Source: Candidatus Daviesbacteria bacterium (GTDB taxonomy: Bacteria > Patescibacteriota > Microgenomatia > Daviesbacterales > UBA10151). From it: a stretch of 64,000 nt of DNA. The first letter of the stretch is position 1. The number at the start of each line of letters is the position of its first letter. A model generated the notes under the pieces. That model made no database searches. It was not told the DNA's origin and worked only from the letters and a program-made list of their open reading frames with translations. The stretch covers positions 4,466 through 68,465 of the forward strand of contig JAUSHE010000014.1 of NCBI GenBank assembly GCA_030648435.1. Reading direction: 5' to 3'. This document shows positions 43,184-59,004 of this stretch, one piece after another. Position numbers and translations under genes: made by a program.

Positions 43184-45631
<2,448 letters not shown>

Positions 45632-45635
<4 letters not shown>

Positions 45636-46513
45636 GTTAATTTAATCAATCTGCCATTATTTTTAACAGATTTTTCTATTGCGGAAAGAATTTTCACTAC
45701 AGAAACCCCACAATCTATATTAGAAGTAATTTTTTTAATACCTTGGATTGCTTGTGTGAATTCTACTAATTCTTCAGTTAAAGCAGATCCGGTAGTTTTG
45801 GTGTAATCCAATTCCCTCTTTTTATTTTTTCTTTTGATAGTTAGTCTTCTAACCTTATGCGATCCCAGCCAGCTAATACTTATTGAAGCTTCTATTCCGT
45901 TTGCAAACCGTATTAAAGCATTTGTCGTGTCATATAGCTTATTGTTTGGATCTGCTATTGAACCAGTTGCCGTCACCTCTACTACTGGTTGTTTAATTAA
46001 ATCAAGAAATATTGAAACTGGATGAGGGCCCCAGTCCCAGATGACAGAGATATCATTTCTAATATGACTACTTAGTCCCTCAAAATGCATGGAATTGATC
46101 GTTTTTGTATCTTCTAGTGCTTTTTTAAATGATTGATATGCTGGGTCATATATATAAGTATGGCCGATTAAAACTTGAGGTTTTTTATTTTGCCATATTT
46201 TTCGTAATTCAAAAGCTTGTCGATAGTTTGTGGTAAAAGGTTTTTCAACCAGTAGATTATTGCCTAAAGACAGTAGTTTTTTAGCTATAACAAAATGTGT
46301 TGAAGCTGGAGTTGCAAGAATAAAACCTTCTATATCTTTGTATTTAAGTAAATCATTAACTGATAAGGTTTTGATATAAGCGTGAGGCAAGAGGTTTAAT
46401 GTTTGTTGAGTTTGAGCGCAGACGTATTTTATTTGAACATTTTTTAATGTAGCAGCAGTACGCAAATAATTCTGACCCCATTTACCAATACCGATAAGAG
46501 CCAAAGTAATCAT
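45632..46513 (-). CDS. Gfo/Idh/MocA-family NAD(P)-dependent sugar oxidoreductase.
   Basis: MITLALIGIGKWGQNY Rossmann motif and an EKP motif. The track start at 46576 would overlap the upstream gene by 62 nt, so I chose the internal ATG at 46513. Confidence 0.65.
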
Positions 46514-46514
46514 T

Positions 46515-47573
46515 TTACAGATGATAATTTTGCTTAAACCATTTAATTGTTTGTTTGAGGCCTGTTTTAAGATCAACTTTTGGTTCGTAATTTAATTGCT
46601 TTATAATTTTTGTTAAATCAGGACAACGCCTTTGTGGTTCTCCGGCAGGGTAATTTAGTGGGTAATTTTTTCTCCGTGGCTTAGATCCGTTATTTAACAT
46701 ATCTACTATAGTTTGGGCTAGCTCAAACATGCCAATTTCCGGCTTATCATTGCCAATGTTATACACCTCTCCTGTTTTTCCGGAGATTAATACTTTAAGG
46801 ATTGCTACAATTGCATCTGTTATATAGCAAAAAGTTCGTGTTTGAACCCCTTTGTCGTGTACGGGGAGATTTTTACCTTTTAAGCCATTATAAATAAAGG
46901 TAGGAATCACACGGTAATCAATATGTTTCATGCCTGGTCCGTATATGTTAAAGGGTCGAACAATCTTAACGGGAATATTATAAATCTGATGATAAGTAAT
47001 ACATAATGTTTCAGCTAGTCGCTTGGATTCATCATAGCAAGCTCTTGGTCCTACACTTGAAACATGCCCGGCATAGGTTTCCGGAGTTGGAACAAATTTA
47101 GGATCCGGATCACCGTATATTTCACTGGACGAAAAAAACAAAAAGCTTACCGGTTTAGTTATTCGTGCCAACTCTAACAAATTTTTTGCGCCCAATATTG
47201 CACTCTCTATTGTTTCTAAAGGATATTTTTTATAGTAGAAGGGAGAAGCAAGTCCTGCTGCATGAATAATATAGTCTACTTTATCAGTTGTAATTACCGG
47301 GAGCCTTATATCTCCGTCCTGAAACTGGAAATTCTTATCTTTAATATCCAGTAAGAAATTTTTCTTCGAACCGGTTATATAATTATCAATTGATATCACT
47401 TTACATTTGTTTTTAAACACTTTTTTATTTAACAGATATAAAACTGCGTTAATATAACTTCCTATAAATCCTGATCCTCCGGATATAAGAATTGTTTTGC
47501 CTTCAAGAGCTTTTGCTTCTTCTTTGATATCGCTGACAATAGTATTTAGGAGTTGAGAAGTAATTTTTGACAT
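46515..47573 (-). CDS. UDP-glucuronate decarboxylase (UXS)-like extended SDR, an NAD-dependent epimerase/dehydratase.
   Basis: ILISGGSGFIGSY and SSSEIYGDP...GPRACYDESKRLAETL closely match the UXS/ArnA-decarboxylase signature. Confidence 0.65.
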   Translation of the reverse strand: MSKITSQLLNTIVSDIKEEAKALEGKTILISGGSGFIGSYINAVLYLLNKKVFKNKCKVISIDNYITGSKKNFLLDIKDKNFQFQDGDIRLPVITTDKVDYIIHAAGLASPFYYKKYPLETIESAILGAKNLLELARITKPVSFLFFSSSEIYGDPDPKFVPTPETYAGHVSSVGPRACYDESKRLAETLCITYHQIYNIPVKIVRPFNIYGPGMKHIDYRVIPTFIYNGLKGKNLPVHDKGVQTRTFCYITDAIVAILKVLISGKTGEVYNIGNDKPEIGMFELAQTIVDMLNNGSKPRRKNYPLNYPAGEPQRRCPDLTKIIKQLNYEPKVDLKTGLKQTIKWFKQNYHL

Positions 47574-48827
47574 TTATATTATTTTTGCTTTTGGAACAGG
47601 TATTATAAAACGACCACCGTTTATTTTAAAGCTTGATAATTTATCCATAATTGGATTGGCAAAATTCCAAGCTAGGATGAATATATAATCAGGTTTGGTC
47701 TCTGAGATTTTATTAAAAGGAAAGACTGGGATATGAGTACCAGGAGTATAGAGTCCTTGTTTATACGCACTGTCGTCTACTATATAATCTAGAATTTGTG
47801 GTCCAATTTTATAGAAATTTAGCAAAGTATTCCCCTTTGCCGGAGCACCGTATCCTACGATAGTCTTTCCCTGCGATTTCAATTTTTTAAGAAGAACAGT
47901 AAGTTCTCTCCTGTTATTTTTAATGGCTTTTGCGAAATCCAGATATGTTTTGGTTTCATTAAGTCCTAAGTTTTTTTCCTCGTCCAAGAACTTTTGTACA
48001 GCTTTCTTTACTTTGTATTTAGCGCCCATTTTTTTACCATAGATCCGTAGTGACCCACCGTGAGAACTGACCTTTTTGGCGTCAAATATTTCCATGTTCA
48101 GTCTTTTAAAAATTGCAGAGAGAGATCTGACCGAAAGATATGATAAATGTTCATGGTAGATTGTATCGAATAGATTCTTTTTTATAAAATCAATCAGATA
48201 CGGAAATTCAATTACAAAAACCCCGTCGTCTTTAGTTAAAATTTTAACTGATTCTATAATCTCATCTAAATCGTGAATATGGGCAAAGGCATTATTGGCG
48301 GTGACAACATCAGCCTGTCCGAATTTATCTACAATGTTTTTGGCGACTTTAGTGTTTAGGAAAAAAGGTAAAGTTTGAAGGCCTGAGTTCGTTGCTTTCT
48401 TTGCGATTTTTATTGCAGGGTCGACCCCCAGTATTTTGATACCGGCTTTTTTTAACGGTCTAAGCAAAATTCCATCATTGCTACCTATATCAACCACCAA
48501 AGATTTTTTGTTTAATTTAAACCTTTTTATTAAATCGCCGGCATATTCTTCGAAATGAGTAACAAAAACAGCTGAAGTAGAGGATACGTAGACATAATTT
48601 CTAAAAAGTAATTCCGGAGAAACAACATGGGTTAGTTGCAACTGGCCGCAATCGATACAAAAATTGACTTGTAACGGAAAAAATGATTCATTCTTTTTTA
48701 GATCAGTCTTTGTTAGAAATGCGTTAGCAGGGGGAGTGGGGGACAAGGAGATGATTCTCTTAAGACTTCTTCCCTTACACATTCGGCAGTAGTTTAATTT
48801 AAATACCGAATGATTATTGTTTGTCAT
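47574..48827 (-). CDS. Class I SAM-dependent methyltransferase with an N-terminal zinc ribbon, NDP-hexose C-methyltransferase (TylCIII)-like.
   Basis: Zinc-ribbon cysteines CRMCKG...CIDCG followed by a methyltransferase core (VVDIGSNDGILL). 417 aa. Paralog of the ORF at 55975. Confidence 0.6.
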   Translation of the reverse strand: MTNNNHSVFKLNYCRMCKGRSLKRIISLSPTPPANAFLTKTDLKKNESFFPLQVNFCIDCGQLQLTHVVSPELLFRNYVYVSSTSAVFVTHFEEYAGDLIKRFKLNKKSLVVDIGSNDGILLRPLKKAGIKILGVDPAIKIAKKATNSGLQTLPFFLNTKVAKNIVDKFGQADVVTANNAFAHIHDLDEIIESVKILTKDDGVFVIEFPYLIDFIKKNLFDTIYHEHLSYLSVRSLSAIFKRLNMEIFDAKKVSSHGGSLRIYGKKMGAKYKVKKAVQKFLDEEKNLGLNETKTYLDFAKAIKNNRRELTVLLKKLKSQGKTIVGYGAPAKGNTLLNFYKIGPQILDYIVDDSAYKQGLYTPGTHIPVFPFNKISETKPDYIFILAWNFANPIMDKLSSFKINGGRFIIPVPKAKII

Positions 48828-49218
48828 CCGTGGTAATTTTAATCCTTACTAAATCGTCTTCGTATTTTCCTTGCTGGCGGTGCTCTGTTGTGATAGCCAG
48901 AAAAACCGTATCTTCCATAAATTCCATGGCATGAGCAATCATTGGTTTAGTAAGTACCAGGTCACCAGGTTTTAAAATTACTGATTCTACTTTCGAATTT
49001 GATTTCTTCATATTTTTCTCGGAGTATCTAAATTTTCCGCTTAAACAATACACATAATGAGCATCCTTTTTATGGTAATGATTTGCTCTCTGGGTACCTG
49101 CTTTACTGGTAATATACAAAACTGCTACGAATTTTTTTCCATCATCATTTACCAAACGGGTAATGTATCCCCGGTCATCAATAAATTCTGGTTTTACGTG
49201 AGTTACGTTAATTGCCAT
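48814..49218 (-). CDS. Cupin-fold NDP-4-keto-6-deoxyhexose 3,4-ketoisomerase (FdtA/WxcM C-terminal domain-like).
   Basis: 134 aa cupin. VKPEFIDDRGYI...HYHKKD...AHAMEF pattern with a two-His cupin motif. It sits in a deoxysugar-modification block. Confidence 0.5.
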   Translation of the reverse strand: MAINVTHVKPEFIDDRGYITRLVNDDGKKFVAVLYITSKAGTQRANHYHKKDAHYVYCLSGKFRYSEKNMKKSNSKVESVILKPGDLVLTKPMIAHAMEFMEDTVFLAITTEHRQQGKYEDDLVRIKITTDDKQ

Positions 49219-49304: not shown

Positions 49305-50021
49305 ATGATTGATAACTTAGATTCTCGGAATATCTATCAAGCAACGACGATGCTTTTGAGCGGTCGTCCAACTAAGCCGGTTGATGTTTTATTTTTCCAT
49401 GGTAGGTTATTTGGGGATGATACCGGTCTTTTTGAGCTGGCAGCTGATTTAGTTAAGAATAAAATGGTAGGAATAGTTGCACTATTTGGTAATGAAGGAG
49501 AAAGGGTTGGAAGTAATATTCCATTTGAAGCCAATCCAGGAAAAACATGGTATAGAAAACAGTTAATAGAGTATGGTGTTCCCCCAGATCAGATTATATT
49601 TGCTGCTGAAGGTGGGTATCATACTGAATTGGAAAGTGATGGTTTTCTTACGTTGGCAGCAGAAAAAGGTTGGTTGAGTGGTGCAATTTTAACTCAACCA
49701 CATCAATTACTTAGGGCCACCTTAGGCATGGTTAGAGCTATGCAGCAACAGTGGTATGTGATGAATGTCTATACAGTAACGCCACCTACAACTAACTGGA
49801 ATGAAATTGTTTTTGGTAGTCAAGGGATGGAGGCGAAACCTAGAGTTGATCATATTGTAGATGAATTAGTGCGTGTGGCAAAATATCAGCAAGACGGAGG
49901 TTTAGTTTCTTTTACAGAACTTTTTGCATATTTGGAAAAAAGGGATCGTAACGAATTAGTGCTTGGACCAACAGAGCGGGGCTCTCAACTTTTTACCAGA
50001 GGTCTACCCTCAGGAATTTAA
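49305..50021 (+). CDS. DUF218/YdcF (SanA/ElyC)-like envelope-associated protein.
   Basis: VDVLFFHG...GYHTELESDGF...AILTQPHQLLRA resembles the DUF218 conserved core. 238 aa. Confidence 0.4.
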   Translation: MIDNLDSRNIYQATTMLLSGRPTKPVDVLFFHGRLFGDDTGLFELAADLVKNKMVGIVALFGNEGERVGSNIPFEANPGKTWYRKQLIEYGVPPDQIIFAAEGGYHTELESDGFLTLAAEKGWLSGAILTQPHQLLRATLGMVRAMQQQWYVMNVYTVTPPTTNWNEIVFGSQGMEAKPRVDHIVDELVRVAKYQQDGGLVSFTELFAYLEKRDRNELVLGPTERGSQLFTRGLPSGI

Positions 50022-50070
50022 GAAAAATATATAGTGGCTTAATATCCGAGAATAGCAATCGGAGATATTT

Positions 50071-51924
50071 GTGTTATATAATTTTGGCTGGATGATAAAA
50101 ACTTTAAAAGTTCATATTGCAGTTAAAGCTTTATTGTATTGGTATATATTTATTTTTATCTCAACTGAAGCTTTGTCCTATTTACATCTTTTGGAAAGAA
50201 ACTATATTCTCACTGCAGAAATCTTTTTTTGGGTAGTTTTCCTCTTTTTTAATCATCAGGAAATCAGGCGAAAAATCCAGGTTATTGATATCCGCTCAAA
50301 GAGCATACTATTTATATTAGCCCTGTTTGGATTAACTTTTATCCAAGGTTTTTTCAGTGCTCCAAGTACAACAGACAGCATGGTTTACCATATCCCAAGA
50401 GTTATGTATTGGATGCAGGAAAAAACTCTTTTTCAGGATGTAATTAGGAACAGTCATGATTATATGGCTCCGTTTGGAGAATATATTTTACTTCATCTAT
50501 ACCTTATTTTTGACAACGACAGGATGTTATTTTTCTCCCAGTGGATTGCTTATGTAGTATCAGTTGTACTCATCGGAATTATAGCTTCTCAATTTGGAGC
50601 AGATCAAAAGACAAAGCAATTAGTCAGGTTATTTACAGCCACATTACCTATTGCTGTTATGCAAGCTTCCAGTACTCAAGTTGACATGGTAGTTACAGTA
50701 TTGGTTCTTTTGAGTTTATACTTATCGATGCTACTTAGACAATTCTATGCTATTAAGCATTCAATATTGCTTGGTTTTGTTATAGGTTTGGGATTTCTAA
50801 CTAAAGCAACCTTTGTGTTTTATGTATTGATACCGATTGGTCTACTATTTTTCTCTTTGTGGCGACAATTTAAAAAATTGATATTAATAATATTACCCAT
50901 ACTGTTATTAACTATTATTCTGCAATTTAGATTTTTATCTCAAAATCTTTTATTATATGGAAATTTTCTTGGAGTAAAAGTATCCGAAAAAGGGGAAGAG
51001 GCGGTTTACATTAATGAAGTAATCAACCCTTCGAGCGTATTATCAAATTTAGTCCGTAATTTTCTTGTTCATCTTCCAATCCCCATCTTTTCATCATATA
51101 TACAAAATACAGTGGTACAACTACATAATTTAATTGGATTTGATATTAACGACCCAAGGATCACTTGCTGTGGTACAGAATTTAGTGTTAAGTCTATTCT
51201 GTATCCGCAGGAAGATATTGTTGCAAATCCGATACATCTAATTATTATTATATCGGGAGGATTTCTGTTTTTTTATAAAAGAAAACAACTTCATATAAAT
51301 CCTCAAATCAAAATCTTATATTTATTAACGATTGCTTCGCTTATTCTTTTTTCAGCATTCATCAAATGGCAACCTTTTCATCCAAGACTGGAGATTCCTT
51401 TTTTTATGGTAGGGACTATGAGTGCTATTATTATTATAAGTAACGCAAAAAAAATAAAACTACTTTATATAGGACTTATTTTATCTAGCGTAATTGTATT
51501 AATAGTGGTATTTCTAAATGTATCCAGGCCTTATATTTCATATAATGTATTTTACAATATGGTAAAAGCTCTCAAGCCTCCCCTTGCAAGTGTTCCTGAA
51601 GCATTTTATGTAAAGCCCCGCCAACAACAATATTTTAACGCCCGGTATTATTGGTATGAACCATATGGAAAAATTATTGATCTTCTCAAAAAAGAGAACA
51701 ATATAGAACTTGCTTTTAATTTAGGAGATGGATTTGAATATCCGTTATGGACGCTTTTCAGAAAATATAAGCTCAATTATCAGGTTGTACCTATGTCTAA
51801 ACTTTCAAAAAACACAATTATCATCTCAACATCGAAAGATCCCTACAAGAGGGAAGGCTATTTGACTGAGTGTATAAAAACTGAGATAGATTATGGTTAT
51901 GCATGTTTAACAATTGCGAACTGA
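50071..51924 (+). CDS. Large polytopic membrane protein, GT-C candidate.
   Basis: 617 aa with more than 12 hydrophobic segments. GTG start at 50071 or ATG at 50092. I recognise no diagnostic motif. Confidence 0.4.
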   Translation: MLYNFGWMIKTLKVHIAVKALLYWYIFIFISTEALSYLHLLERNYILTAEIFFWVVFLFFNHQEIRRKIQVIDIRSKSILFILALFGLTFIQGFFSAPSTTDSMVYHIPRVMYWMQEKTLFQDVIRNSHDYMAPFGEYILLHLYLIFDNDRMLFFSQWIAYVVSVVLIGIIASQFGADQKTKQLVRLFTATLPIAVMQASSTQVDMVVTVLVLLSLYLSMLLRQFYAIKHSILLGFVIGLGFLTKATFVFYVLIPIGLLFFSLWRQFKKLILIILPILLLTIILQFRFLSQNLLLYGNFLGVKVSEKGEEAVYINEVINPSSVLSNLVRNFLVHLPIPIFSSYIQNTVVQLHNLIGFDINDPRITCCGTEFSVKSILYPQEDIVANPIHLIIIISGGFLFFYKRKQLHINPQIKILYLLTIASLILFSAFIKWQPFHPRLEIPFFMVGTMSAIIIISNAKKIKLLYIGLILSSVIVLIVVFLNVSRPYISYNVFYNMVKALKPPLASVPEAFYVKPRQQQYFNARYYWYEPYGKIIDLLKKENNIELAFNLGDGFEYPLWTLFRKYKLNYQVVPMSKLSKNTIIISTSKDPYKREGYLTECIKTEIDYGYACLTIAN

Positions 51925-52694
51925 TTCCAGAAATTTCGATCATATTTTGCCCAGGCGTGACAGCCAAAAGGAAGCTGGTTATTGTTTAGTTCAAAACATT
52001 TTCTAGGAAATCTTTCAAAAGAGAACTTTAGTGCCTCCTTGAAGGGGGCTATCTGGAACTTTGGATAATATTTTACTGCTTCATATGACCAAAAACCATC
52101 TTCATTAAACGGATAGTCTTTTGGTGGAGCATTAAGCCATATCTTGTGGGATCTACTGTTTAAGACTGCCATTATAAACCATAATTTACGAATAAATGGA
52201 TTACTAGAACCTTGTGTAGCTAATTTTTCCGCATAGTCGATAACTTTTATAAAGCTAGACACTTTTCTAAGAGAGAAACCTCCGTTACCACCAGAAATAG
52301 GATTTCCTAATTTGTAAGATAGTCCTCCTATTATTGGGTTAAAAAAAGGTGCTCCAATATAATCATATCCTTTATCACACCAAAAATTTAGCTGGTCAGA
52401 AAAAACCAAAGCATCAAGCTGATATATAAATATATACTTGTAGTTTACAAAGGGTCGATAAAAATCCCTAGTAATTAACAGGGCTGAATAAGTTCGTACA
52501 CTGGTAAAATTTTCTGAAGCAAATCTAATTATTTTTTTTGATCTAATCTTTTTAAATATTTTCGTATCCAAACTCTCTGGAATAACTAAATAGAGATCGT
52601 AACTCCTCAAGAATTTATTTAGATGATTCAATGAGACTTGTTCGTCACGGGTTATCATTCTAAAGATTGGAATAACTATGGCAACTTTTTTCAT
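51897..52694 (-). CDS. DUF5672-like protein, a putative glycosyltransferase.
   Basis: 265 aa with a GGNGGFSLRK motif and a VAIVIPIF N-terminus, typical of DUF5672 proteins found in glycan loci. Confidence 0.45.
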   Translation of the reverse strand: MKKVAIVIPIFRMITRDEQVSLNHLNKFLRSYDLYLVIPESLDTKIFKKIRSKKIIRFASENFTSVRTYSALLITRDFYRPFVNYKYIFIYQLDALVFSDQLNFWCDKGYDYIGAPFFNPIIGGLSYKLGNPISGGNGGFSLRKVSSFIKVIDYAEKLATQGSSNPFIRKLWFIMAVLNSRSHKIWLNAPPKDYPFNEDGFWSYEAVKYYPKFQIAPFKEALKFSFERFPRKCFELNNNQLPFGCHAWAKYDRNFWNQFAIVKHA

Positions 52695-52696
52695 AT

Positions 52697-53716: not shown

Positions 53717-54623
53717 ATGTGTATTTATTTGTTTTTATAAAATCTTCCTTATTTTTATATCTTTTTTTGAGATGTTTTCCCGGTTTACTTGCTATTCCTA
53801 GCCAACCGCTGGGCATATTTGCCTCTGGGTATACTTTTACATTGGTTAAGAAACCAATTAAGCTTACAAATAATTTCATGGAAAAATATCCGATTCCTGC
53901 TAAAAGAAATTTTGGTATTTTTTTTACGATCTTAAAATATCCATTTTTACTATAAAATATTTCCCAAAAAACTTTTTTTGGATTTTTGTTAGTTTGTAAT
54001 AAGTCATAAACAATTGCAACGGGAAGGTAGGGAATAATACCCTGTACACAGGTTGAACCGGCTGTAATATTTATTTTAGTAAAACCAGCATCTTTTAACC
54101 ATCTTTCCAAGCCAAATTTAGTCGGCCGTTGAAAATCATAGGGGACTTCGTGTTCTAGGCAGATAAAGGGTACGGATATATACATCCTTCCGCCAGGTTT
54201 CAATACCCGGAAGGCTTCAGCAAGAAATCTCTCCGGATATTTAATGTGTTCCAGAGTAGAATTACTAATTATTTCATCAATACAGTTATCCCGAAGAGGT
54301 ATTCTTTTATCAAGTGGGCTGATTAGATCATATTCAATTTTCCCCATGCCTTTGAATTCAATGCCAGCACTATGTTCTTGGCTTAGGTAAATACTTTTGT
54401 CAAAAAAAGGTTTAAATCTCAATTGGCCTGCCCCGGCGTCTAAAATTACTCCTCCCTTTACGAAATTAGCTGCTTCCAAGAAAAAGTAAAACCCCTTTCT
54501 TGCTCCAGAGGATCTACCCCAGCCCATTTTCATTTTATTAATCCAGTATTCCCGAAGGGTATTACTCATTTTGAATATTAATATTTTAGAAATTCCATAT
54601 ATTTCTTTAAGCTTTTCTCCCAT
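53706..54623 (-). CDS. Class I SAM-dependent methyltransferase.
   Basis: VILDAGAGQ (motif I) and VLKPGGRMYISVPF. The true start may be the internal ATG near 54569, because the track start overlaps the upstream gene by 46 nt. Confidence 0.6.
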   Translation of the reverse strand: MGEKLKEIYGISKILIFKMSNTLREYWINKMKMGWGRSSGARKGFYFFLEAANFVKGGVILDAGAGQLRFKPFFDKSIYLSQEHSAGIEFKGMGKIEYDLISPLDKRIPLRDNCIDEIISNSTLEHIKYPERFLAEAFRVLKPGGRMYISVPFICLEHEVPYDFQRPTKFGLERWLKDAGFTKINITAGSTCVQGIIPYLPVAIVYDLLQTNKNPKKVFWEIFYSKNGYFKIVKKIPKFLLAGIGYFSMKLFVSLIGFLTNVKVYPEANMPSGWLGIASKPGKHLKKRYKNKEDFIKTNKYTYGY

Positions 54624-55441
54624 GATGGCAAGACAATGCCTATTTTCCGAGCTCTTGTGTTGCTTAGTACGGAAAATTTGGATCTTTTAAAATCTTCTGC
54701 ACTAATGCGGTTTTTTACCGGGATGATTTTAATCGTGAGATTTGCATATTCTGCAATTTTTTGCGCAAATTCTGCCATAGAACAATATCCTTCGCTAGCT
54801 AAATGATAAATACCCTTATTTTGTGTATCCAGTAATAACTGGAATATAGCTGATGCCAGATCACTCGAATAAGTGGGATTTGCATATAAGTCTGAAGAAA
54901 CCTCAAGAGAACTATGATTTTTATCAGCGCTTATTATGGATAAAACAAAATTGCCTTTTTTTGATTTGCTACCGGTTAAGCCTCCGTATAATCCACAAGT
55001 TCTGATAATTATAGAATCTGGATTATAGTTTAATGTAATTAATTCTCCAGCATTTTTTGATATTCCATAAATTTGAAGAGGATTTGTTTTATCGTCTTCC
55101 CTGTATGGTTTATTTTTTTTACCGTCAAAAACATAATCAGAACTGATTGTAATAAATTTAATAGCATTGCTCTTGCTTATTAGTGCTAAATTTTTTAGTG
55201 CAATAGCATTAACCTGAAATGCTTTATCTGCATTTATCTCGCAATCGGGAACAACATGATAAGCGGCGGTATTAATAATAATATTTGGCTTAATTAATGT
55301 TAGGATTTTATCTACGGCATTTTTGCTGGTGATATCTAGTTCGATTCTAGAGTAGCCTTTTACATAGGTTCCTGTTTTTTTACCCTCTTTTATTAAGCTT
55401 TGGCCGAGTTGACCATCTTTTCCAAGGATTAGAATTCTCAT
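54578..55441 (-). CDS. dTDP-4-dehydrorhamnose reductase-like, second RmlD-type copy.
   Basis: MRILILGKDGQLGQSL and SSDYVFDGKKNKPYREDDKTNP...YGISKNAGE. 287 aa. Confidence 0.7.
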   Translation of the reverse strand: MRILILGKDGQLGQSLIKEGKKTGTYVKGYSRIELDITSKNAVDKILTLIKPNIIINTAAYHVVPDCEINADKAFQVNAIALKNLALISKSNAIKFITISSDYVFDGKKNKPYREDDKTNPLQIYGISKNAGELITLNYNPDSIIIRTCGLYGGLTGSKSKKGNFVLSIISADKNHSSLEVSSDLYANPTYSSDLASAIFQLLLDTQNKGIYHLASEGYCSMAEFAQKIAEYANLTIKIIPVKNRISAEDFKRSKFSVLSNTRARKIGIVLPSWEKSLKKYMEFLKY

Positions 55442-55971
55442 TATAGTTTGTATTCTGGCCAGCTCTGATCCTTATCAGAAAGAATTGGATTTTTAAGCGG
55501 CCATTGAATATTAAATTTAGGGTCATTCCAACGAATCCCACGGGCATGTTCGCCCGAATAATATTCAGACATATAATATAAGACCTCGCAGTCTTCAGTT
55601 AGGGTTTGAAATCCGTGCGCAACACCCCTTGGTATATAAAGCATATGTTTATATTGTCCATTTAACTCAAAAGTTTCATGATTGCCATAGGTTTTGGATC
55701 CAGGTCTTAGATCTATAACTACATCGAAAATACAGCCTTTCAAACATTGAACGATTTTAGTTTCCTCAAATGGAGCTATTTGAAAATGTAATCCTCTCAG
55801 AGTTCCTTTTGGTTTTGTATATGAAATACTTGTCTGAAGAATCTCAAAACTTATATTTAATTTGCCAAATTCTTTAACACAGAAGGTTCGGGTAAAGTAG
55901 CCTCTCCCGTCCTCTAATAACTCAGGTTTTATTAAAAGAAGGTTATCAATGGATGTTTTTTGAAAAATCAT
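55441..55971 (-). CDS. dTDP-4-dehydrorhamnose 3,5-epimerase-like cupin, second RmlC-type copy.
   Basis: Canonical RGLHFQ motif. 176 aa. Confidence 0.75.
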   Translation of the reverse strand: MIFQKTSIDNLLLIKPELLEDGRGYFTRTFCVKEFGKLNISFEILQTSISYTKPKGTLRGLHFQIAPFEETKIVQCLKGCIFDVVIDLRPGSKTYGNHETFELNGQYKHMLYIPRGVAHGFQTLTEDCEVLYYMSEYYSGEHARGIRWNDPKFNIQWPLKNPILSDKDQSWPEYKL

Positions 55972-55974
55972 AAG

Positions 55975-57189
55975 TTAAATAATTCTAATTTTTGGGATAG
56001 GAATTATAAATTTTCCCCCATTCTTTTGATATTCTTTCAGTTGTTCAATAACTTCTTTGTAAATATTCCAACATAAAATTAATAAATAGTCAGGTTCTTC
56101 CTGATAGATCTTTTCTACGGGAAAAACCTGCATATGGGTACCAGGAGTATACAATCCTTGTTTTTCTTTTGCTCTATCTACAATAAAGTCAACTAATTTG
56201 GAGTCAATACCAAAATAATTCATCAATATATTTCCTTTTGCAGGTGCACTATATACTGCAACGTGCTTATTCTTTGTTTTTATATCATTTAGTAATTTGA
56301 TAAGATCTTTTTTTAATATATTGATGTTCTTATTTAATACATTGTATGTAGATAGTTTATTAAATCCTAGGTCCAACTCTTTTTTTACCAATTTAGTTAC
56401 ATTTTTTGAAATTTTAAATGAATTGGGATGAGATACATAGATTCTTAAGGAGCCCCCCTGCATATCTACCAGATCAACATCATATAACTCTAAATCTACG
56501 CTTTCAAATAAATTTCTTAAAGCTATAAGAGAATAGTAAAAAACATGTTCGTGATATATAGTGTCAAACTTATTTTCTAAAAGCCCCCTAATGTAGGGAA
56601 ATTCAAAAATTGCCGTACCATTTATTTTTAATAAAGTCCTCACTCCTTTTACAAAATCAACTATTTTTGGAACGTGTGCTAGAACATTCGCCCCAAAAAT
56701 TAAGTCAGCTCTTAATCCCTTCTTATTTAATTTTTTTGCTAATGCTAAATTGAAAAACTCAGGTAATGTTTTGATGCTTTTTTTATTGGCGAGGGCAGCT
56801 ATATTTTTAGCAGGATCGATACCGAGTATTCTTATGCCCAGTTGTTGGAAAAAATCAAGTTGAACACCATCATTTGAGGCAATTTCTACAACCAGATTTT
56901 TTTTGTTTAAATTAAATCTCCTAGTAAAATATTCCGCATTACTCCTGGAATGATCAATTATTGTTTGGGAGGTAGAGGAAAAATAGATATAATTTTCAAA
57001 TAAATCCTTTGGTGAAATTGTTTTCATCAATTGAACTAAGTAACATTTATTACAAAATCCTACGGTCAAATCATATTCAGCTTCTTTTTTCTTTAGGCCT
57101 TCTTTTGTTAGAAATAAGTTAACAAGAGGGATATCTCCTAAGCTGAAAAAGGGTTTTATATAATTGCTACAAACTCTACATTTAGTCAT
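55975..57189 (-). CDS. Zinc-ribbon class I SAM methyltransferase, NDP-hexose C-methyltransferase-like (paralog of the ORF at 47574).
   Basis: CRVCSN...CNKCYLVQL zinc ribbon and a methyltransferase core (VVEIASNDGVQL). 404 aa. Confidence 0.6.
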   Translation of the reverse strand: MTKCRVCSNYIKPFFSLGDIPLVNLFLTKEGLKKKEAEYDLTVGFCNKCYLVQLMKTISPKDLFENYIYFSSTSQTIIDHSRSNAEYFTRRFNLNKKNLVVEIASNDGVQLDFFQQLGIRILGIDPAKNIAALANKKSIKTLPEFFNLALAKKLNKKGLRADLIFGANVLAHVPKIVDFVKGVRTLLKINGTAIFEFPYIRGLLENKFDTIYHEHVFYYSLIALRNLFESVDLELYDVDLVDMQGGSLRIYVSHPNSFKISKNVTKLVKKELDLGFNKLSTYNVLNKNINILKKDLIKLLNDIKTKNKHVAVYSAPAKGNILMNYFGIDSKLVDFIVDRAKEKQGLYTPGTHMQVFPVEKIYQEEPDYLLILCWNIYKEVIEQLKEYQKNGGKFIIPIPKIRII

Positions 57190-57190
57190 T

Positions 57191-58234
57191 CTACTCTTTC
57201 CAAAATAAACTTTTATCTATTCGATTCTCACTAAGCAAGTTTTGGATGCTCTGTAACCGAGTGTACTTACCTGTTACAAAGTCCTCCTTAGAATATTTAG
57301 CCTGTTTAAGCTTACTTATTAAATCTTTGATAGATTTTTGGATGGGCCATTTCTGAGTTATATGGGGGAATAATTTTTTAAATTTTGAAAAGTTTACCCT
57401 ATAACTACGGTTATCCTTAGATGCATTTTTGTTAAATTCAACATCGCATTGAGGAAGCTGTTTATGAATACATTCTACAACTTCCTTAACTCTAAGATTA
57501 TTTTCACTGAAACCAATGTTTATAATCTCTCCATTTATTAAAGCAGGATTAGCCCGTATAAATTCTATAAAAATATCCGCCAGATCTCTAACATCAATAA
57601 GGGGTCGCCAAGGACTTCCATCGCTAAATACTTTCAGTTGATTTAGCGCAATTGCGCAAGTAGTGAGATTATTTACTACCAGGTCATTTCTAAATTTTGG
57701 AGAGAATCCGTAGACAGTGGAGTTTCTCATAATGCCTACACAAAAATTCTTGTCAGCAAGCTTTTTGAGAACCCCCTCTGAAAGTATTTTGGAGGTAGCA
57801 TATGCTGTCAGGGGATTAACGGGAGAACTTTCATCAACTGTTCCCTTTTCAGCAGAACCGTATATACTGCACGAAGAAGAGAAAATAAACTTTTTTACTT
57901 TTTGTTTTTTAGCTAGTTTGGCTAACTTTACGGTTGAACAATAATTAATCTGTTTTGTAAGTTTTGGTTTTAGAGCTCCCATTGGGTCATTAGACAAAGC
58001 GGCCAAATGAATTACTGCATCGAAATTTTTTAAGGAAAAATTATCTAATTTGCGAATATCTCTTTTAATTTGCTTAAAGTCTGAATTAATAGGAATAAGC
58101 TCAATGTTTTTAAAATAAAAGTTATCTATTCCGGTAACATTGTAACCTTGTTTTAGAAGTCTGTTTACTAAAACTGCTCCTATATAACCATCGGAACCCG
58201 TGACCAAGATATTTTTAATTACCATATTTTCCAA
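57191..58234 (-). CDS. NAD-dependent epimerase/dehydratase (extended SDR), probably acting on a CDP- or dTDP-hexose.
   Basis: ILVTGSDGYIGAVL and a YATSK (YxxxK) motif. 347 aa. It lies adjacent to the cytidylyltransferase. Confidence 0.6.
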   Translation of the reverse strand: MENMVIKNILVTGSDGYIGAVLVNRLLKQGYNVTGIDNFYFKNIELIPINSDFKQIKRDIRKLDNFSLKNFDAVIHLAALSNDPMGALKPKLTKQINYCSTVKLAKLAKKQKVKKFIFSSSCSIYGSAEKGTVDESSPVNPLTAYATSKILSEGVLKKLADKNFCVGIMRNSTVYGFSPKFRNDLVVNNLTTCAIALNQLKVFSDGSPWRPLIDVRDLADIFIEFIRANPALINGEIINIGFSENNLRVKEVVECIHKQLPQCDVEFNKNASKDNRSYRVNFSKFKKLFPHITQKWPIQKSIKDLISKLKQAKYSKEDFVTGKYTRLQSIQNLLSENRIDKSLFWKE

Positions 58235-59004
58235 TAAGGATTATTATTCCAAAGCTCCTTTAAATTTTCAAGCTCCCTAGATGTATCTACTGCATACCAG
58301 AAACCTTCATGCTTATAGACTGATAATTGTTCGTCATCCGCTATTCTTTGATAAGCTGCATGATCCATCTCTTCCGGTTTTAGGTATTTGAAGATTTCTT
58401 TCGTAAATACCATAAACCCTCCGTTAACCCAGTCTGAAAGAACAGGTTTTTCTTGAAATGATTTAACAAGATCTGGATTATTCTCATTAGTTTTAACCAG
58501 ACCAAATTTTGAGCTAGGATGTACACCAGTAATTGTGCCGATAGTTTTTTGATGCCTATGAAATTCAAGCAGTTTCTTTAGATCAATATTTGACACTCCA
58601 TCTCCATAAGTAACCATGAATTCTTTGTCTGTTTCAGGGATATATTTTTTACATTTTATAATTCTGTCCGAAGTAGGTGATTCTACACCGGTATCAACAA
58701 AAGTTATATTAAAAACATCAACACCGTCTTCTTTGCGGTTTTTTAAATGGAAAGTAGTTTTATAAGTCTTTGTATTAAGGGTGAAATCAGTCGTAAAAGC
58801 CTTTTGGTTTAAGAAAAAATCCTTAATGTAATTTCCCTTGTATCCTAAGGCTAGAATAAATTCATTAAATCCGTAATGTGCATATATTTTCATAATATGC
58901 CAAATAAGAGGTTTTCCGCCCACCTCAACCATTGGTTTTGGTTTAAACTCGGTCTCTTCTTTTAATCTTGTACCAACCCCTCCACAAAGAATTATTACTT
59001 TCAT
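58219..59004 (-). CDS. rfbF: Glucose-1-phosphate cytidylyltransferase.
   Basis: MKVIILCGGVGTRLKEETEFKPKPMVEVGGKPLIWHIMKIYAHYGFNEFILALGYKG closely matches the RfbF/DdhA N-terminus. 261 aa. Confidence 0.85.
   Translation of the reverse strand: MKVIILCGGVGTRLKEETEFKPKPMVEVGGKPLIWHIMKIYAHYGFNEFILALGYKGNYIKDFFLNQKAFTTDFTLNTKTYKTTFHLKNRKEDGVDVFNITFVDTGVESPTSDRIIKCKKYIPETDKEFMVTYGDGVSNIDLKKLLEFHRHQKTIGTITGVHPSSKFGLVKTNENNPDLVKSFQEKPVLSDWVNGGFMVFTKEIFKYLKPEEMDHAAYQRIADDEQLSVYKHEGFWYAVDTSRELENLKELWNNNPYWKIW

What the first reader, a model, noticed from the sequence alone, without database searches (positions are those of the whole stretch)
45632..59004. Minus-strand block encoding a CDP/dTDP-hexose tailoring pathway with two C-methyltransferase-like enzymes
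The block holds glucose-1-P cytidylyltransferase (58219) followed by an epimerase/dehydratase (57191). It also holds two zinc-ribbon methyltransferases of the NDP-hexose C-methyltransferase type (55975, 47574), second copies of rmlC and rmlD (55441, 54578) and an FdtA-like 3,4-ketoisomerase (48814). A UXS-like decarboxylase (46515), a Gfo/Idh/MocA oxidoreductase (45632), a SAM methyltransferase (53706) and putative transferases (59023, 52697, 51897) complete it. No recognisable CDP-glucose 4,6-dehydratase or E1/E3 dideoxy enzymes are visible. The combination suggests a branched-chain or doubly methylated deoxyhexose, which is rare outside actinomycete antibiotic pathways, apparently destined for the same surface glycan. 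That would be three or four distinct activated sugars feeding one locus: dTDP-Rha, GDP-Fuc, the modified hexose and a CMP-nonulosonate.
Basis: partly seen in the sequence, partly recalled or inferred. Interest (0 to 1): 0.6.

Follow-up and report, generated by a model that had tools for sequence, protein, structure and literature searches.

The report
Two branched-sugar cassettes in CPR bacterium
The block is two separate, widely conserved gene cassettes, each predicted to make a different C-methyl-branched sugar for the surface glycan of an uncultured Candidatus Daviesbacteria bacterium. One cassette replaces the usual 4,6-dehydratase with an oxidase-type enzyme, which points to an undescribed route to branched sugars.

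Summary
The block is not one minus-strand pathway. Two plus-strand genes split it into two operons, and each operon is conserved on its own in other genomes.

Cassette A runs in this order:
- RfbF-like nucleotidyltransferase
- SDR
- C-methyltransferase 1
- RmlC
- RmlD
- methyltransferase

In 40 of 44 related loci the SDR slot holds a [T/S]-D-K 4,6-dehydratase. Here it holds an SDR family with an S-S-C-S motif and no dehydratase acid/base pair. Its closest solved relative is the C. jejuni C4-dehydrogenase Cj1427. In 7-8 of 80 related metagenome loci this SDR family sits next to an L-2-hydroxyglutarate oxidase. That fits net C4 oxidation recycled through alpha-ketoglutarate, not dehydration.

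Cassette B runs FdtA-like cupin, C-methyltransferase 2, UXS-like decarboxylase, Gfo/Idh/MocA. It is conserved in five other loci, and the cupin and methyltransferase are fused in one of them. Polyprenyl-phosphate-type GT2 and GT-C genes lie nearby, which resembles the Arn pathway and suggests a branched pentose.

Products and chemistry are inferred, not shown. I rate this a new variant of a known kind, of moderate interest.

The parts
59023..60066 (-). GT2 glycosyltransferase (TIGR04440 type). First gene of the cassette A operon after a TPR gene.
   Evidence: Pfam Glycos_transf_2 at 5.9e-10; NCBIfam TIGR04440 at 193 bits against a cut-off of 70. A homologue sits in the same position in the syntenic locus L067.
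58219..59004 (-). RfbF-family sugar-1-phosphate nucleotidyltransferase, probably glucose-1-P cytidylyltransferase
   Evidence: TIGR02623 at 262 bits, below its cut-off of 300. 1TZF at E 3.8e-55, 37.5% identity. The same NT type pairs with canonical CDP-glucose 4,6-dehydratases in other CPR loci.
57191..58234 (-). Extended SDR in the 4-keto-generating slot. It lacks the dehydratase acid/base pair and is predicted to be an NDP-hexose C4-dehydrogenase.
   Evidence: Best PDB match is 6vo6 (Cj1427) at E 3e-34 and 33% identity. The motif is SSSCSIYG, against [TS][TS]DK in 40 of 44 loci. The family motif [SG]SCSxYG is found in 84 of 88 members. The family is linked to RfbF, RmlC, the C-methyltransferase and L-2-hydroxyglutarate oxidase.
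55975..57189 (-). C-methyltransferase 1 (TylC3/TcaB9/MtmC type)
   Evidence: Methyltransf_13 at 2.7e-17 and Methyltransf_14 at 4.7e-53. 4rv9 at E 2.5e-74. Zinc cysteines and catalytic residues kept.
55441..55971 (-). RmlC-family epimerase. After C3 methylation only C5 can be epimerised.
   Evidence: TIGR01221 at 173.9 bits against a cut-off of 155.75. 36% identical to rmlC at 2192.
54578..55441 (-). RmlD-family 4-ketoreductase
   Evidence: TIGR01214 at 254.3 bits against a cut-off of 224. 31% identical to rmlD at 2737. Replaced by a DegT aminotransferase in L001 and 7 of 27 CPR loci.
53706..54623 (-). Class I SAM methyltransferase, presumed O-methyltransferase
   Evidence: Methyltransf_11 at 4.4e-11. 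A homologue sits in the same place in L067. Other loci carry a CmcI-type methyltransferase there.
52697..53716 (-). Conserved protein of unknown family
   Evidence: No Pfam, NCBIfam or PDB hit. AF2 model at pLDDT 37. Homologues at 46-59% identity lie next to DUF5672 in L004, L005 and L067.
51897..52694 (-). DUF5672 protein, last gene of the cassette A operon
   Evidence: PF18922 at 7.4e-51. Conserved partner of the preceding gene. AF2 model unusable.
50071..51924 (+). GT-C (PMT_2-type) membrane glycosyltransferase on the opposite strand; it interrupts the block.
   Evidence: PMT_2 at 4.2e-08. 51% identical homologue next to cassette B in L005. GT-C proteins lie near cassette B in L006 and L149. 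A 643-aa protein without a Pfam hit occupies that position in L148.
49305..50021 (+). Unknown 238-aa protein, plus strand
   Evidence: No family hit. Only weak 25-27% matches in three cassette A-type loci (L010, L023, L034).
48814..49218 (-). FdtA/QdtA-like cupin, predicted NDP-4-keto-sugar 3,4-ketoisomerase
   Evidence: Pfam FdtA at 22.5 bits against a cut-off of 23. The orthologue profile gives QdtA at 3e-4 and FdtA at 9e-4 as the top PDB hits, with H47-x-H49 aligned to the catalytic H-x-H. Fused to the C-methyltransferase in P0181 and P0189.
47574..48827 (-). C-methyltransferase 2 (TylC3/TcaB9/MtmC type)
   Evidence: Methyltransf_13 at 6.1e-20 and Methyltransf_14 at 1.8e-58. 4rv9 at E 3.7e-94. 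Catalytic residues kept; 42% identical to C-methyltransferase 1.
46515..47573 (-). UXS/ArnA-type SDR, predicted UDP-glucuronate decarboxylase that supplies a 4-keto-pentose
   Evidence: Human UXS1 2b69 at E 1.3e-57. The motifs SSEIYG and GPRACYDESKR match those of UXS. 77-87% identical in L004-L006.
45632..46576 (-). Gfo/Idh/MocA oxidoreductase, presumed ketoreductase of cassette B
   Evidence: PF01408 at 7.4e-14 and PF22725 at 6.1e-11. Same position in L004, L005 and L149; replaced by a methyltransferase in L148.
42203..45635 (+). Convergent conserved module: GT2 (PpgS-like), DUF2304, GT2, Fcl-like SDR, GT2 (AglJ/ArnC-like). Proposed lipid-carrier loading for the cassette B sugar.
   Evidence: Same five genes in the same order next to cassette B in L004 and L005.

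Best explanation
The region holds two independent nucleotide-sugar C-methylation cassettes inside a giant surface-glycan locus of a Candidatus Daviesbacteria (CPR) genome.

Cassette A (59004 down to 53706, flanked by a GT2 and two conserved unknowns):
1. An RfbF-type enzyme makes CDP-glucose.
2. The SDR at 57191 oxidises C4 and releases the 4-keto sugar. Most likely it does not remove the 6-hydroxyl. This would make it a Cj1427-like net dehydrogenase whose bound NADH must be re-oxidised, with alpha-ketoglutarate as the oxidant in relatives.
3. The TylC3-type methyltransferase adds a methyl group at C3.
4. The RmlC-type enzyme epimerises C5.
5. The RmlD-type enzyme reduces C4.
6. A class I methyltransferase O-methylates.
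The product would be a CDP-3-C-methyl-L-hexose. If the SDR is a hidden dehydratase, the product would be the 6-deoxy, vinelose-like analogue.

Cassette B (49218 down to 45632):
1. A UXS/ArnA-type SDR turns UDP-glucuronate into a UDP-4-keto-pentose.
2. An FdtA-like cupin and the second C-methyltransferase act on the shared 3,4-enediolate. In some relatives these two are fused.
3. A Gfo/Idh/MocA enzyme reduces the remaining ketone.
4. A small GT2 loads the branched pentose onto polyprenyl phosphate.
5. A GT-C enzyme transfers it outside the membrane, in the manner of ArnA/ArnC/ArnT.

Shown: gene content, family membership, catalytic motifs, synteny and gene associations. Inferred: all substrates, the order of steps, stereochemistry and the final acceptor.
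For: Two units:
- Strand layout and tight coupling. Gene gaps are -46 to +3 in cassette A and -62 to 0 in cassette B.
- Cassette A is conserved alone in L001, L002, L067 and 57 genome loci.
- Cassette B is conserved alone in L004, L005, L006, L148 and L149.

C-methyltransferases: full-length matches to MtmC, KijD1 and TcaB9, with all zinc and catalytic residues kept.

SDR as a keto-sugar producer:
- It occupies the slot of a [TS][TS]DK dehydratase (40 of 44 loci) but lacks that pair.
- In L001 it is the only oxidoreductase upstream of a C-methyltransferase, an RmlC and an aminotransferase.
- Of 67 family loci with flanking sequence, 46 carry a keto-sugar-using enzyme, 38 carry an RfbF-like NT and none carries a canonical RfbG.

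SDR as a net oxidase:
- The closest solved structure is Cj1427, a ping-pong C4-dehydrogenase recycled by alpha-ketoglutarate (PMC10680097).
- An L-2-hydroxyglutarate oxidase (NF008726 at 538 bits against a cut-off of 299) lies in the same cluster in 7-8 of 80 loci, in at least four different gene orders. A redox-neutral dehydratase would not need it.

Cassette B:
- UXS motifs.
- FdtA/QdtA H-x-H.
- Cupin-methyltransferase fusion.
- GalU-like NT in L006.
- Polyprenyl-phosphate-type GT2s and GT-C enzymes nearby.
Against: - No enzyme was assayed. Every substrate and product is inferred.
- The window has no L-2-hydroxyglutarate oxidase. The loci that do are only 38-41% identical in the SDR.
- The SDR is only 33% identical to Cj1427 and is a different subfamily. 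It has a near-invariant Cys (84 of 88 members) of unknown role, so a non-canonical dehydration or an epimerase chemistry cannot be excluded.
- The nucleotidyltransferase scores below the RfbF equivalog cut-off, so the nucleotide is not certain.
- No UDP-glucose 6-dehydrogenase was found in the 64 kb window, so the supply of UDP-glucuronate for cassette B is unverified.
- A true 3,4-ketoisomerase cannot act after C3 methylation, so the site of methylation in cassette B (C2, C3 or C4) is open.
- L148 lacks the Gfo gene.
Confidence: 0.6

Rival explanations
1. Cassette A makes a 6-deoxy sugar. The 57191 SDR would be a non-canonical CDP-glucose 4,6-dehydratase and the product a CDP-6-deoxy-3-C-methyl-(O-methyl)-L-hexose. 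This resembles CDP-vinelose of Azotobacter (from my own knowledge; no paper on it is in the library).
For: The SDR sits exactly where a [TS][TS]DK CDP-glucose 4,6-dehydratase sits in 40 of 44 C-methyltransferase loci. L002 has the fully canonical version RfbF-RfbG-CMT-RmlC-RmlD-CmcI. The near-invariant Cys lies at the position of the dehydratase Asp and could be a general acid.
Against: No Asp-Glu, Asp-Lys or Ser-Glu pair is present. Some members have Ala or Gln in place of the Cys. TIGR02622 scores 26 bits against a cut-off of 278. The closest structure is a non-dehydrating C4-dehydrogenase. The link to L-2-hydroxyglutarate oxidase implies net oxidation.
Confidence: 0.25
2. One reading: one pathway in which both C-methyltransferases act on the same nucleotide sugar, giving a doubly C-methylated or branched deoxyhexose.
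For: Both genes lie within 10 kb in one glycan locus. Some loci carry two or three Methyltransf_14 proteins side by side (L113, L149).
Against: The two lie in different operons separated by plus-strand genes. Each methyltransferase has its own SDR and partners, and each occurs without the other cassette in other genomes. One cassette points to a CDP-sugar and the other to a UDP-sugar.
Confidence: 0.07
3. Cassette B works on a hexose. The UXS-like SDR would act as a GMD-style 4,6-dehydratase (Ser-x-Glu) on an NDP-hexose. The FdtA-like cupin then makes the 3-keto-6-deoxy sugar, which is C-methylated and reduced by Gfo, as a 3-ketoreductase of the KijD10 type would do.
For: The S-S-E motif is also compatible with GMD-type dehydration (knowledge of GMD). 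Known FdtA and QdtA substrates are 4-keto-6-deoxyhexoses. No Ugd gene was found in the window. L006 has a sugar-1-P nucleotidyltransferase directly upstream.
Against: Similarity to UXS1 (199 bits) far exceeds that to any 4,6-dehydratase (118 bits or less). The UXS-specific loop GPRACYDExKR and the C-terminal R-x-P-D are kept. The Arn-like neighbourhood of polyprenyl-phosphate GT2 and GT-C fits a pentose route.
Confidence: 0.2
4. The zinc-ribbon methyltransferases are not sugar C-methyltransferases. They would be N- or O-methyltransferases, or act on a non-sugar substrate.
For: No assay exists. NCBIfam has no equivalog model for them, and the best hit is UbiG at 35 bits, far below its cut-off.
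Against: They have the full three-domain architecture. Identity to three structurally characterised sugar 3-C-methyltransferases is 31-39%. All five TcaB9 active-site residues and four zinc cysteines are kept. They are invariably embedded between keto-sugar-forming and keto-sugar-using enzymes.
Confidence: 0.05

Closest known systems
L-mycarose late steps (TylC3/MtmC 3-C-methyltransferase, TylK 5-epimerase, TylC2 4-ketoreductase) in actinomycete antibiotic pathways
   Same: Cassette A has the same order of chemistry: a 4-keto NDP-sugar, C3 methylation by a Zn-ribbon/SAM/Methyltransf_14 enzyme, an RmlC-family epimerase and an SDR 4-reductase. Catalytic residues are kept.
   Different: The nucleotide is probably CDP, not dTDP. 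There are no 2- or 3-deoxygenation genes. There is no 4,6-dehydratase. The setting is a cell-surface glycan locus of a CPR bacterium, not a secondary-metabolite cluster.
Campylobacter jejuni heptose modification: Cj1427 (C4-dehydrogenase), Cj1430 (C3/C5-epimerase), Cj1428 (C4-reductase)
   Same: The logic is oxidise C4 without dehydration, epimerise, then reduce. Cj1427 is the closest solved relative of the 57191 SDR (E 3e-34). The alpha-ketoglutarate to L-2-hydroxyglutarate recycling of Cj1427 (PMC10680097) matches the L-2-hydroxyglutarate oxidase genes beside family members.
   Different: Identity is only 33%. The active-site motif differs (S-S-C-S against T-N-S). The substrate is probably CDP-glucose rather than a GDP-heptose. 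A C-methyltransferase is inserted. The window itself has no oxidase gene.
CDP-6-deoxyhexose pathways starting with RfbF and RfbG (ascarylose, tyvelose, abequose), and the canonical CPR version in locus L002
   Same: RfbF-family nucleotidyltransferase as the first step. RmlC-like and RmlD-like enzymes finish the pathway, as AscE and AscF do.
   Different: RfbG (motif T-D-K, TIGR02622) is replaced by an unrelated SDR subfamily. No E1/E3 3-deoxygenation genes are present. A C-methyltransferase is added.
Arn pathway for L-Ara4N (ArnA decarboxylase, ArnB, ArnC, ArnT)
   Same: Cassette B has a UXS/ArnA-type SDR that would give a UDP-4-keto-pentose, a small polyprenyl-phosphate GT2 (its ArnC, AglJ and PpgS hits all fall below their cut-offs) and a PMT_2-type GT-C.
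   Different: The keto-pentose would be isomerised, C-methylated and reduced rather than transaminated and formylated. No ArnB or formyltransferase is present. The acceptor is unknown.
FdtA/QdtA 3,4-ketoisomerases of the dTDP-Fuc3NAc and dTDP-Qui3NAc pathways
   Same: Same size, same cupin fold family, and the catalytic H-x-H-K-K motif is aligned.
   Different: The sequence match is very distant (E about 1e-3 to 1e-4). The partner is a C-methyltransferase, fused to the cupin in some relatives, rather than an aminotransferase. The presumed substrate is a UDP-pentose.
Coxiella burnetii virenose and Helicobacter pylori 3-C-methyl-D-mannose (C-branched sugars in LPS)
   Same: These are precedents for C-methyl sugars in bacterial surface glycans. 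The H. pylori sugar keeps its 6-hydroxyl (PMC12961483). The virenose route was proposed in silico with a TylC3-like enzyme (PMC3539893).
   Different: Neither biosynthesis has been shown. Different nucleotides were proposed (GDP or dTDP). There is no evidence of homology at the cassette level.

Membership tests
NDP-hexose C-methyltransferase (TylC3/TcaB9/MtmC/KijD1) | Three-domain architecture: N-terminal 4-Cys zinc ribbon (Methyltransf_13), class I SAM domain, C-terminal Methyltransf_14 | tested here: met
   Both proteins pass the Pfam gathering scores for PF08421 and PF08484. The four Cys are C4/C7/C46/C49 and C14/C17/C57/C60.
NDP-hexose C-methyltransferase (TylC3/TcaB9/MtmC/KijD1) | Active-site residues equivalent to TcaB9 Y76, H181, Y222, E224 and H225 | tested here: met
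   CMT1 has Y67, H172, Y212, E214, H215. CMT2 has Y78, H183, Y224, E226, H227. The residue list comes from my knowledge of the TcaB9 mutant structures 4e2w-4e33, which are listed.
NDP-hexose C-methyltransferase (TylC3/TcaB9/MtmC/KijD1) | SAM-dependent methylation of a carbon next to the keto group of an NDP-keto-sugar | not testable with these tools
   Only context is available: the genes are always flanked by keto-sugar-forming and keto-sugar-using enzymes.
CDP-glucose 4,6-dehydratase (RfbG, TIGR02622) | Score above the equivalog cut-off | tested here: not met
   26.5 bits (57191) and 47.9 bits (46515) against a cut-off of 278. The L002 enzyme scores 466 bits.
CDP-glucose 4,6-dehydratase (RfbG, TIGR02622) | Catalytic Thr/Ser-Asp-Lys (or Asp-Glu) acid/base pair before the Tyr-x-x-x-Lys | tested here: not met
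   57191 has S-S-C-S. 40 of 44 other loci have [TS][TS]DK in that slot.
Cj1427-type NDP-sugar C4-dehydrogenase | Extended SDR with a Ser/Thr-Tyr-Lys triad but without dehydratase acid/base residues | tested here: met
   S121, and Y145/K149 in YATSK; no Asp or Glu at the two positions.
Cj1427-type NDP-sugar C4-dehydrogenase | Close sequence relationship to Cj1427 | tested here: inconclusive
   It is the best PDB hit (E 3e-34) but identity is only 33% and the motif differs (SSCS against TNS). A true TNS-motif homologue exists separately in L018.
Cj1427-type NDP-sugar C4-dehydrogenase | Tightly bound NADH re-oxidised by alpha-ketoglutarate, giving L-2-hydroxyglutarate | not testable with these tools
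   Indirect evidence only. L-2-hydroxyglutarate oxidase genes lie beside the SDR in 7-8 of 80 family loci. None is in the window.
Glucose-1-phosphate cytidylyltransferase (RfbF, TIGR02623) | Score above the equivalog cut-off and a full-length match to a solved RfbF | tested here: inconclusive
   262 bits against a cut-off of 300. Full-length alignment to 1TZF at E 4e-55 and 37.5% identity. The same NT subtype pairs with canonical RfbG elsewhere.
dTDP-4-dehydrorhamnose 3,5-epimerase and reductase (RmlC, RmlD) | Scores above the TIGR01221 and TIGR01214 cut-offs | tested here: met
   173.9 bits against 155.75, and 254.3 bits against 224.05. Family membership is met. The true substrate is probably not the dTDP sugar.
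FdtA/QdtA 3,4-ketoisomerase | Pfam PF05523 above the gathering score | tested here: inconclusive
   The window protein scores 22.5 bits against 23. The orthologues in L004, L148 and L149 carry an unmarked PF05523 hit.
FdtA/QdtA 3,4-ketoisomerase | Catalytic His-x-His (FdtA H49/H51) | tested here: met
   H47-Y-H49-K-K aligns with RGfHaHKK of FdtA and RGyHsHKK of QdtA in the profile search. These residues are invariant in 4 orthologues.
UDP-glucuronate decarboxylase (UXS/ArnA C-terminal domain) | Ser/Thr-x-Glu plus Tyr-x-x-x-Lys, with the UXS-type loop before the Tyr | tested here: met
   SSEIYG and GPRACYDESKR align with STSEVYG and GPRACYDEGKR of human UXS1 at E 1.3e-57.
UDP-glucuronate decarboxylase (UXS/ArnA C-terminal domain) | A source of UDP-glucuronate (Ugd) in the genome | tested here: not met
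   No UDPG_MGDP_dh hit among the window ORFs scanned. The rest of the genome was not available.

The most novel reading that the evidence does not exclude
The S-S-C-S SDR family would be a large, uncharacterised class of nucleotide-hexose C4-dehydrogenases. It gave more than 600 pattern-matching stretches in metagenomes, of which 585 were confirmed as relatives, and it is common in Microgenomates. These enzymes would release a 4-keto sugar that keeps its 6-hydroxyl. In some lineages they would be kept running by an alpha-ketoglutarate / L-2-hydroxyglutarate oxidase cycle. In this Daviesbacteria locus the SDR would feed a C-methyltransferase to give a non-deoxy 3-C-methyl-L-hexose. The second cassette would build a C-methyl pentose from UDP-glucuronate and deliver it on a lipid carrier. 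These would be two sugar types with no known biosynthesis, on the surface of a CPR bacterium.
Probability: 0.4. Interest if true: 0.72.

Novelty: new variant of a known kind. Interest (0 to 1): 0.55.

Why it matters
- Branched-chain (C-methyl) sugars are textbook features of actinomycete antibiotics. Their biosynthesis in cell-surface glycans is essentially unstudied; examples are Coxiella virenose and H. pylori 3-C-methyl-mannose.
- This locus and its relatives show that TylC3-type enzymes are widespread in surface-glycan loci of uncultured Patescibacteria, in two fixed cassette designs.
- The cassette A design gives a concrete, testable answer to how a 3-C-methyl hexose that keeps its 6-hydroxyl could be made: a non-dehydrating C4-dehydrogenase replaces the 4,6-dehydratase.
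- The link to L-2-hydroxyglutarate oxidase would extend the unusual Cj1427 ping-pong mechanism from one Campylobacter enzyme to a large family.
- All enzymes are small and likely soluble, so they could be expressed from synthetic genes. The claims can be tested without cultivating the organism.

Tried and rejected
1. Exact-sequence look-up of the window C-methyltransferase found nothing. The search for homologous proteins nevertheless listed a 100%-identical, same-length NCBI record, so the cause is unknown. Homologue look-ups worked.
2. AlphaFold2 on single sequences of 52697 and 51897 gave pLDDT 37 and 38. The models are unusable, so no fold search was run.
3. A profile of the 52697 family against PDB sequences gave no hit at E<=10. 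Pfam at E<=5 gave nothing meaningful. The 'transferase' label for 52697 and 51897 stays unsupported.
4. Literature searches found nothing for vinelose, for C-methyltransferase + branched-chain sugar + LPS, or for CDP-glucose + 2-hydroxyglutarate. The search on Patescibacteria surface glycans returned nothing relevant. The two Cj1427 primary papers are not held.
5. I first thought the Cys in SSCS was not conserved, because Levybacteria have Ala. The 88-sequence tally shows it in 84 of 88 members. I withdraw that point; the role of the Cys is unexplained.
6. The promoter/terminator scan is not above chance overall, with 72 sites against 71.7 expected. Only the sites in the two divergent gaps are noted.
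7. I considered that C-methyltransferase 1, RmlC2 and RmlD2 might use dTDP-4-keto-6-deoxyglucose from rmlA/rmlB at 476-2199. I rejected this as the main reading. The cassette always carries its own NT and SDR with overlapping genes, and in L001 no other SDR lies within 10 kb either side of the cassette.

Full report
ORIGIN AND SETTING

C-methyltransferase 1 is 100% identical to a protein of a Candidatus Daviesbacteria MAG on an 89.7 kb contig. Daviesbacteria belong to the Microgenomates within the CPR/Patescibacteria.

The whole 64 kb window is one glycan locus. It contains:
- rmlABCD at 476-3630;
- a GMD-like gene at 3649 and an Fcl-like gene at 43981;
- GT2-GtrA and GT2-PMT_2 fusion proteins;
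- about a dozen large membrane proteins in tandem between 9891 and 37710, eight of which hit PMT/PMT_2 or PTPS_related above threshold;
- a Wzx-like flippase.

OBSERVATION

Their family assignments hold at E-values from 1e-10 to 1e-94. Four corrections apply.
1. Two plus-strand ORFs interrupt the 'minus-strand block': 49305-50021 (no family) and 50071-51924 (PMT_2-type GT-C). The right-hand unit runs from about 61000 to 51897 with gene gaps of -46 to +45 nt. The left-hand unit runs from 49218 to 45632 with gaps of -62 to 0 nt. The left unit converges on plus-strand genes that end at 45635.
2. The cupin at 48814 misses the Pfam FdtA threshold by half a bit. A profile of four orthologues places QdtA (E 3e-4) and FdtA (E 9e-4) at the top of the PDB list. 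The invariant H47-x-H49-K-K aligns with their catalytic H-x-H.
3. 52697 has no detectable family and 51897 is DUF5672. Calling them transferases is unsupported.
4. RmlC2 and RmlD2 are 36% and 31% identical to the rmlC and rmlD at the left end of the window. They are separate lineages, not recent copies.

THE TWO METHYLTRANSFERASES

Both proteins align end to end with the sugar 3-C-methyltransferases MtmC (4rv9), KijD1 (5t64) and TcaB9 (3ndi). In a MAFFT alignment they keep the four zinc cysteines. They also keep the equivalents of TcaB9 Y76, H181, Y222, E224 and H225. That residue set is from my knowledge of the TcaB9 mutant series listed. The two are 42% identical to each other and 31-39% identical to the actinomycete enzymes.

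The family is not rare. It has 3,462 clusters at 50% identity with E<=1e-30 in 1.84 billion representatives. Hundreds of proteins 60-80% identical to each window enzyme exist.

CASSETTE A

Homologues of C-methyltransferase 1 were fetched from 57 species genomes. Those above 52% identity are almost all Patescibacteria. More distant ones occur in SAR11 and Ruegeria.

A tblastn tally shows a fixed order: RfbF-like NT, SDR, C-methyltransferase, RmlC. Of 27 CPR loci with enough downstream sequence:
- RmlC follows in 22;
- RmlD follows in 13;
- a DegT aminotransferase follows in 7;
- a CmcI-type methyltransferase follows in 10.

L067 is fully syntenic with the window, from the GT2 through DUF5672. 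L002 is the canonical form. Its RfbF scores 458 bits, its CDP-glucose 4,6-dehydratase scores 466 bits, and the C-methyltransferase, RmlC, RmlD and CmcI genes follow.

The window departs from this pattern in the SDR slot. In 40 of 44 loci the SDR directly upstream of the C-methyltransferase carries [TS][TS]DK, the dehydratase Thr/Asp/Lys motif. The window, L001 and L067 carry S-S-C-S, and L060 carries S-T-Q-S.

The window SDR scores 26 bits on the CDP-glucose dehydratase model. Its best NCBIfam hit is GalE, below that model's cut-off. Its best solved relative is 6vo6 (E 3e-34, 33% identity). From my knowledge, 6vo6 is Cj1427. Cj1427 oxidises C4 of GDP-D-glycero-D-manno-heptose without dehydration. 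It holds NADH tightly and is recycled by alpha-ketoglutarate, which becomes L-2-hydroxyglutarate. It feeds a C3/C5-epimerase and a C4-reductase (PMC10680097).

IS THE SDR THE KETO-SUGAR SOURCE?

In L001 it is the only oxidoreductase in a cassette that ends in an aminotransferase, and an aminotransferase needs a ketone. In Levybacteria the same SDR (58% identical) sits in an NT, SDR, RmlC, RmlD operon without a C-methyltransferase, in the position RmlB would hold.

I scanned metagenomes with the family signatures SDG[TS]PWRPL and FR[ND]DLVVN. This gave more than 600 stretches, of which 80 were fetched. Of 67 loci with flanking sequence:
- 38 have an RfbF-like NT;
- 31 have an RmlC;
- 21 have a TylC3-type C-methyltransferase;
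- 8 have an aminotransferase;
- none has a canonical RfbG.

The family therefore supplies keto sugars. Only 3 of the 67 have an RmlD homologue, so the reductase is often something else, such as a 303-aa SDR in L141.

IS IT A DEHYDRATASE OR A NET OXIDASE?

In L141 the gene between the NT and the SDR is an L-2-hydroxyglutarate oxidase, with NF008726 at 537.7 bits against a cut-off of 299. Homologues lie in the same cluster in L122, L139, L120, L134, L116 and L127, and a 29% relative lies in L109. At least four different gene orders are seen. In L116 and L127 the cluster also holds a C-methyltransferase.

A 4,6-dehydratase is internally redox-neutral and has no use for such an enzyme. An enzyme that dumps hydride onto alpha-ketoglutarate does. 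I take this as the best available evidence that the family performs net C4 oxidation.

Caveats:
- The window has no such oxidase gene.
- The loci that do are 38-41% identical in the SDR.
- The near-invariant Cys (84 of 88; Ala in three near-identical Levybacteria loci, Gln in L060) sits where the dehydratase Asp would be. Its role is unexplained.

I put about 0.5-0.55 on 'no 6-deoxygenation' and 0.25 on a hidden dehydratase.

PREDICTED CASSETTE A CHEMISTRY (INFERRED)

1. CDP-glucose is made.
2. It is oxidised to CDP-4-keto-glucose.
3. C3 is methylated.
4. C5 is epimerised. C3 has no proton left after methylation.
5. C4 is reduced.
6. The sugar is O-methylated.
7. The sugar is transferred.

The outcome would be a 3-C-methyl-L-hexose. 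A natural non-deoxy 3-C-methyl hexose is known from H. pylori O-antigen (PMC12961483). Its biosynthesis was not mentioned in the papers I found.

CASSETTE B

The order cupin, C-methyltransferase 2, UXS-like SDR is conserved in L004, L005, L006, L148 and L149. In L006 (P0181), and in P0189 as well, the cupin and the methyltransferase form one 551-aa protein. This argues for consecutive steps. The fourth gene is Gfo/Idh/MocA in the window, L004, L005 and L149, and a methyltransferase in L148.

The SDR is 199 bits from human UXS1. It keeps S-S-E-I-Y-G and the loop GPRACYDESKR. The NT upstream of the fusion in L006 is GalU-like. Both points indicate UDP-sugars.

In L004 and L005 the cassette converges on the same five genes as in the window:
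- a PpgS-like GT2;
- DUF2304;
- a GT2;
- an Fcl-like SDR;
- an AglJ/ArnC-like GT2.

Small GT2s and GT-C proteins lie near the cassette in the other loci too.

I read this as an Arn-like route: UDP-glucuronate, then UDP-4-keto-pentose, then isomerisation, C-methylation and reduction, then a polyprenyl-phosphate carrier, then GT-C transfer.

Open points:
- No Ugd gene was found in the window.
- The carbon that is methylated is unknown. A true 3,4-ketoisomerase must act before methylation, which would favour C4 or C2 over C3.
- The Fcl-like SDR might serve this cassette rather than GDP-fucose synthesis.

COMPARISON AND VERDICT

Each enzyme is a member of a known family. The cassettes are new combinations:
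- A: an RfbF-type NT, a non-dehydrating SDR and mycarose-like late steps.
- B: an ArnA/UXS-type SDR, an FdtA-like cupin and a TylC3-type methyltransferase with lipid-carrier delivery.

I found no paper describing either. The closest in-silico precedent is the proposed virenose route (PMC3539893).

'One pathway', 'doubly methylated' and 'deoxyhexose' are not supported.

The list of activated sugars feeding the locus also needs revision:
- dTDP-Rha (rmlABCD);
- probably GDP-Fuc (GMD-like plus Fcl-like);
- the cassette A sugar;
- the cassette B sugar;
- an unverified CMP-sugar. Only a sub-threshold PseF-like cytidylyltransferase with a PtmA-like SDR was found, and no nonulosonate synthase lies in the window.

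Novelty: new variant of a known kind. Interest: 0.55. Interest would rise to about 0.7 if the C4-dehydrogenase reading is confirmed.

Noticed in passing
L141:5781-6980 (also L122, L139, L120, L134, L116, L127, L109): An L-2-hydroxyglutarate oxidase gene (NF008726 at 538 bits) sits inside nucleotide-sugar operons, next to the S-S-C-S SDR family. At least four gene orders are seen. This suggests an alpha-ketoglutarate / L-2-hydroxyglutarate redox shuttle for sugar C4 oxidation.
   Followed up: partly
window 9891-37710: About a dozen large membrane-protein genes (380-1131 aa) lie in tandem. Eight hit PMT/PMT_2 (GT-C) or PTPS_related above threshold, one only weakly, and five have no Pfam hit. A Wzx-like flippase lies among them. 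This is an unusually large share of a roughly 1 Mb CPR genome to spend on extracytoplasmic glycosylation.
   Followed up: partly
window 20297-25721: Two large ORFs (1131 aa and 675 aa) in the middle of the glycan locus have no Pfam match.
   Followed up: no
L006:8001-9656 (P0181; also P0189): A natural fusion of the FdtA-like cupin with the TylC3-type C-methyltransferase in a single 551-aa protein.
   Followed up: partly
L064-L066:6223-9404: Levybacteria carry an NT, S-S-S-A-S SDR, RmlC, RmlD operon without a C-methyltransferase. The protein was indexed in 59 blocks of the collection. This looks like a rhamnose-type pathway whose first oxidising enzyme is not a recognisable dehydratase.
   Followed up: partly
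window 57868-57879 (SDR residues 119-122); family-wide: A Cys in the motif [SG]-S-C-S-x-Y-G is present in 84 of 88 family members. It sits at the position of the dehydratase Asp. Its role is unknown.
   Followed up: partly
L113:8044-11736: Downstream of the SDR lie a full C-methyltransferase and then two more Methyltransf_14-containing methyltransferases that lack the zinc ribbon. An exosortase (EpsH) gene lies nearby.
   Followed up: no
window 60983-61033: A perfect TTGACA-17-TATAAT on the minus strand (61011-60983) and an 11/12 match on the plus strand lie in the divergent gap. The minus-strand site falls inside the 5' end of the mechanically called TPR ORF (60112-61011), so that gene probably starts further downstream.
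   Followed up: no
window 61043-63487: A Gfo/Idh/MocA gene, a PseF-like cytidylyltransferase (136 bits against a cut-off of 206) and a PtmA-like SDR form a triad, also conserved in L067. No nonulosonate synthase is in the window, so the CMP-activated sugar is unidentified.
   Followed up: no
window 6994-9150 and 4662-5843: Two fusion proteins: GT2 + PMT_2 (718 aa) and GT2 + GtrA (393 aa). The GT2 + PMT_2 protein joins a lipid-carrier-loading domain and a GT-C domain in one polypeptide.
   Followed up: no
L018:769-1749: A Liptonbacteria SDR carries the exact Cj1427 active-site motif (FPNTNSGYG) next to an RmlC-like gene. It appears to be a closer Cj1427 homologue in the CPR and is distinct from the S-S-C-S family.
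   Followed up: no
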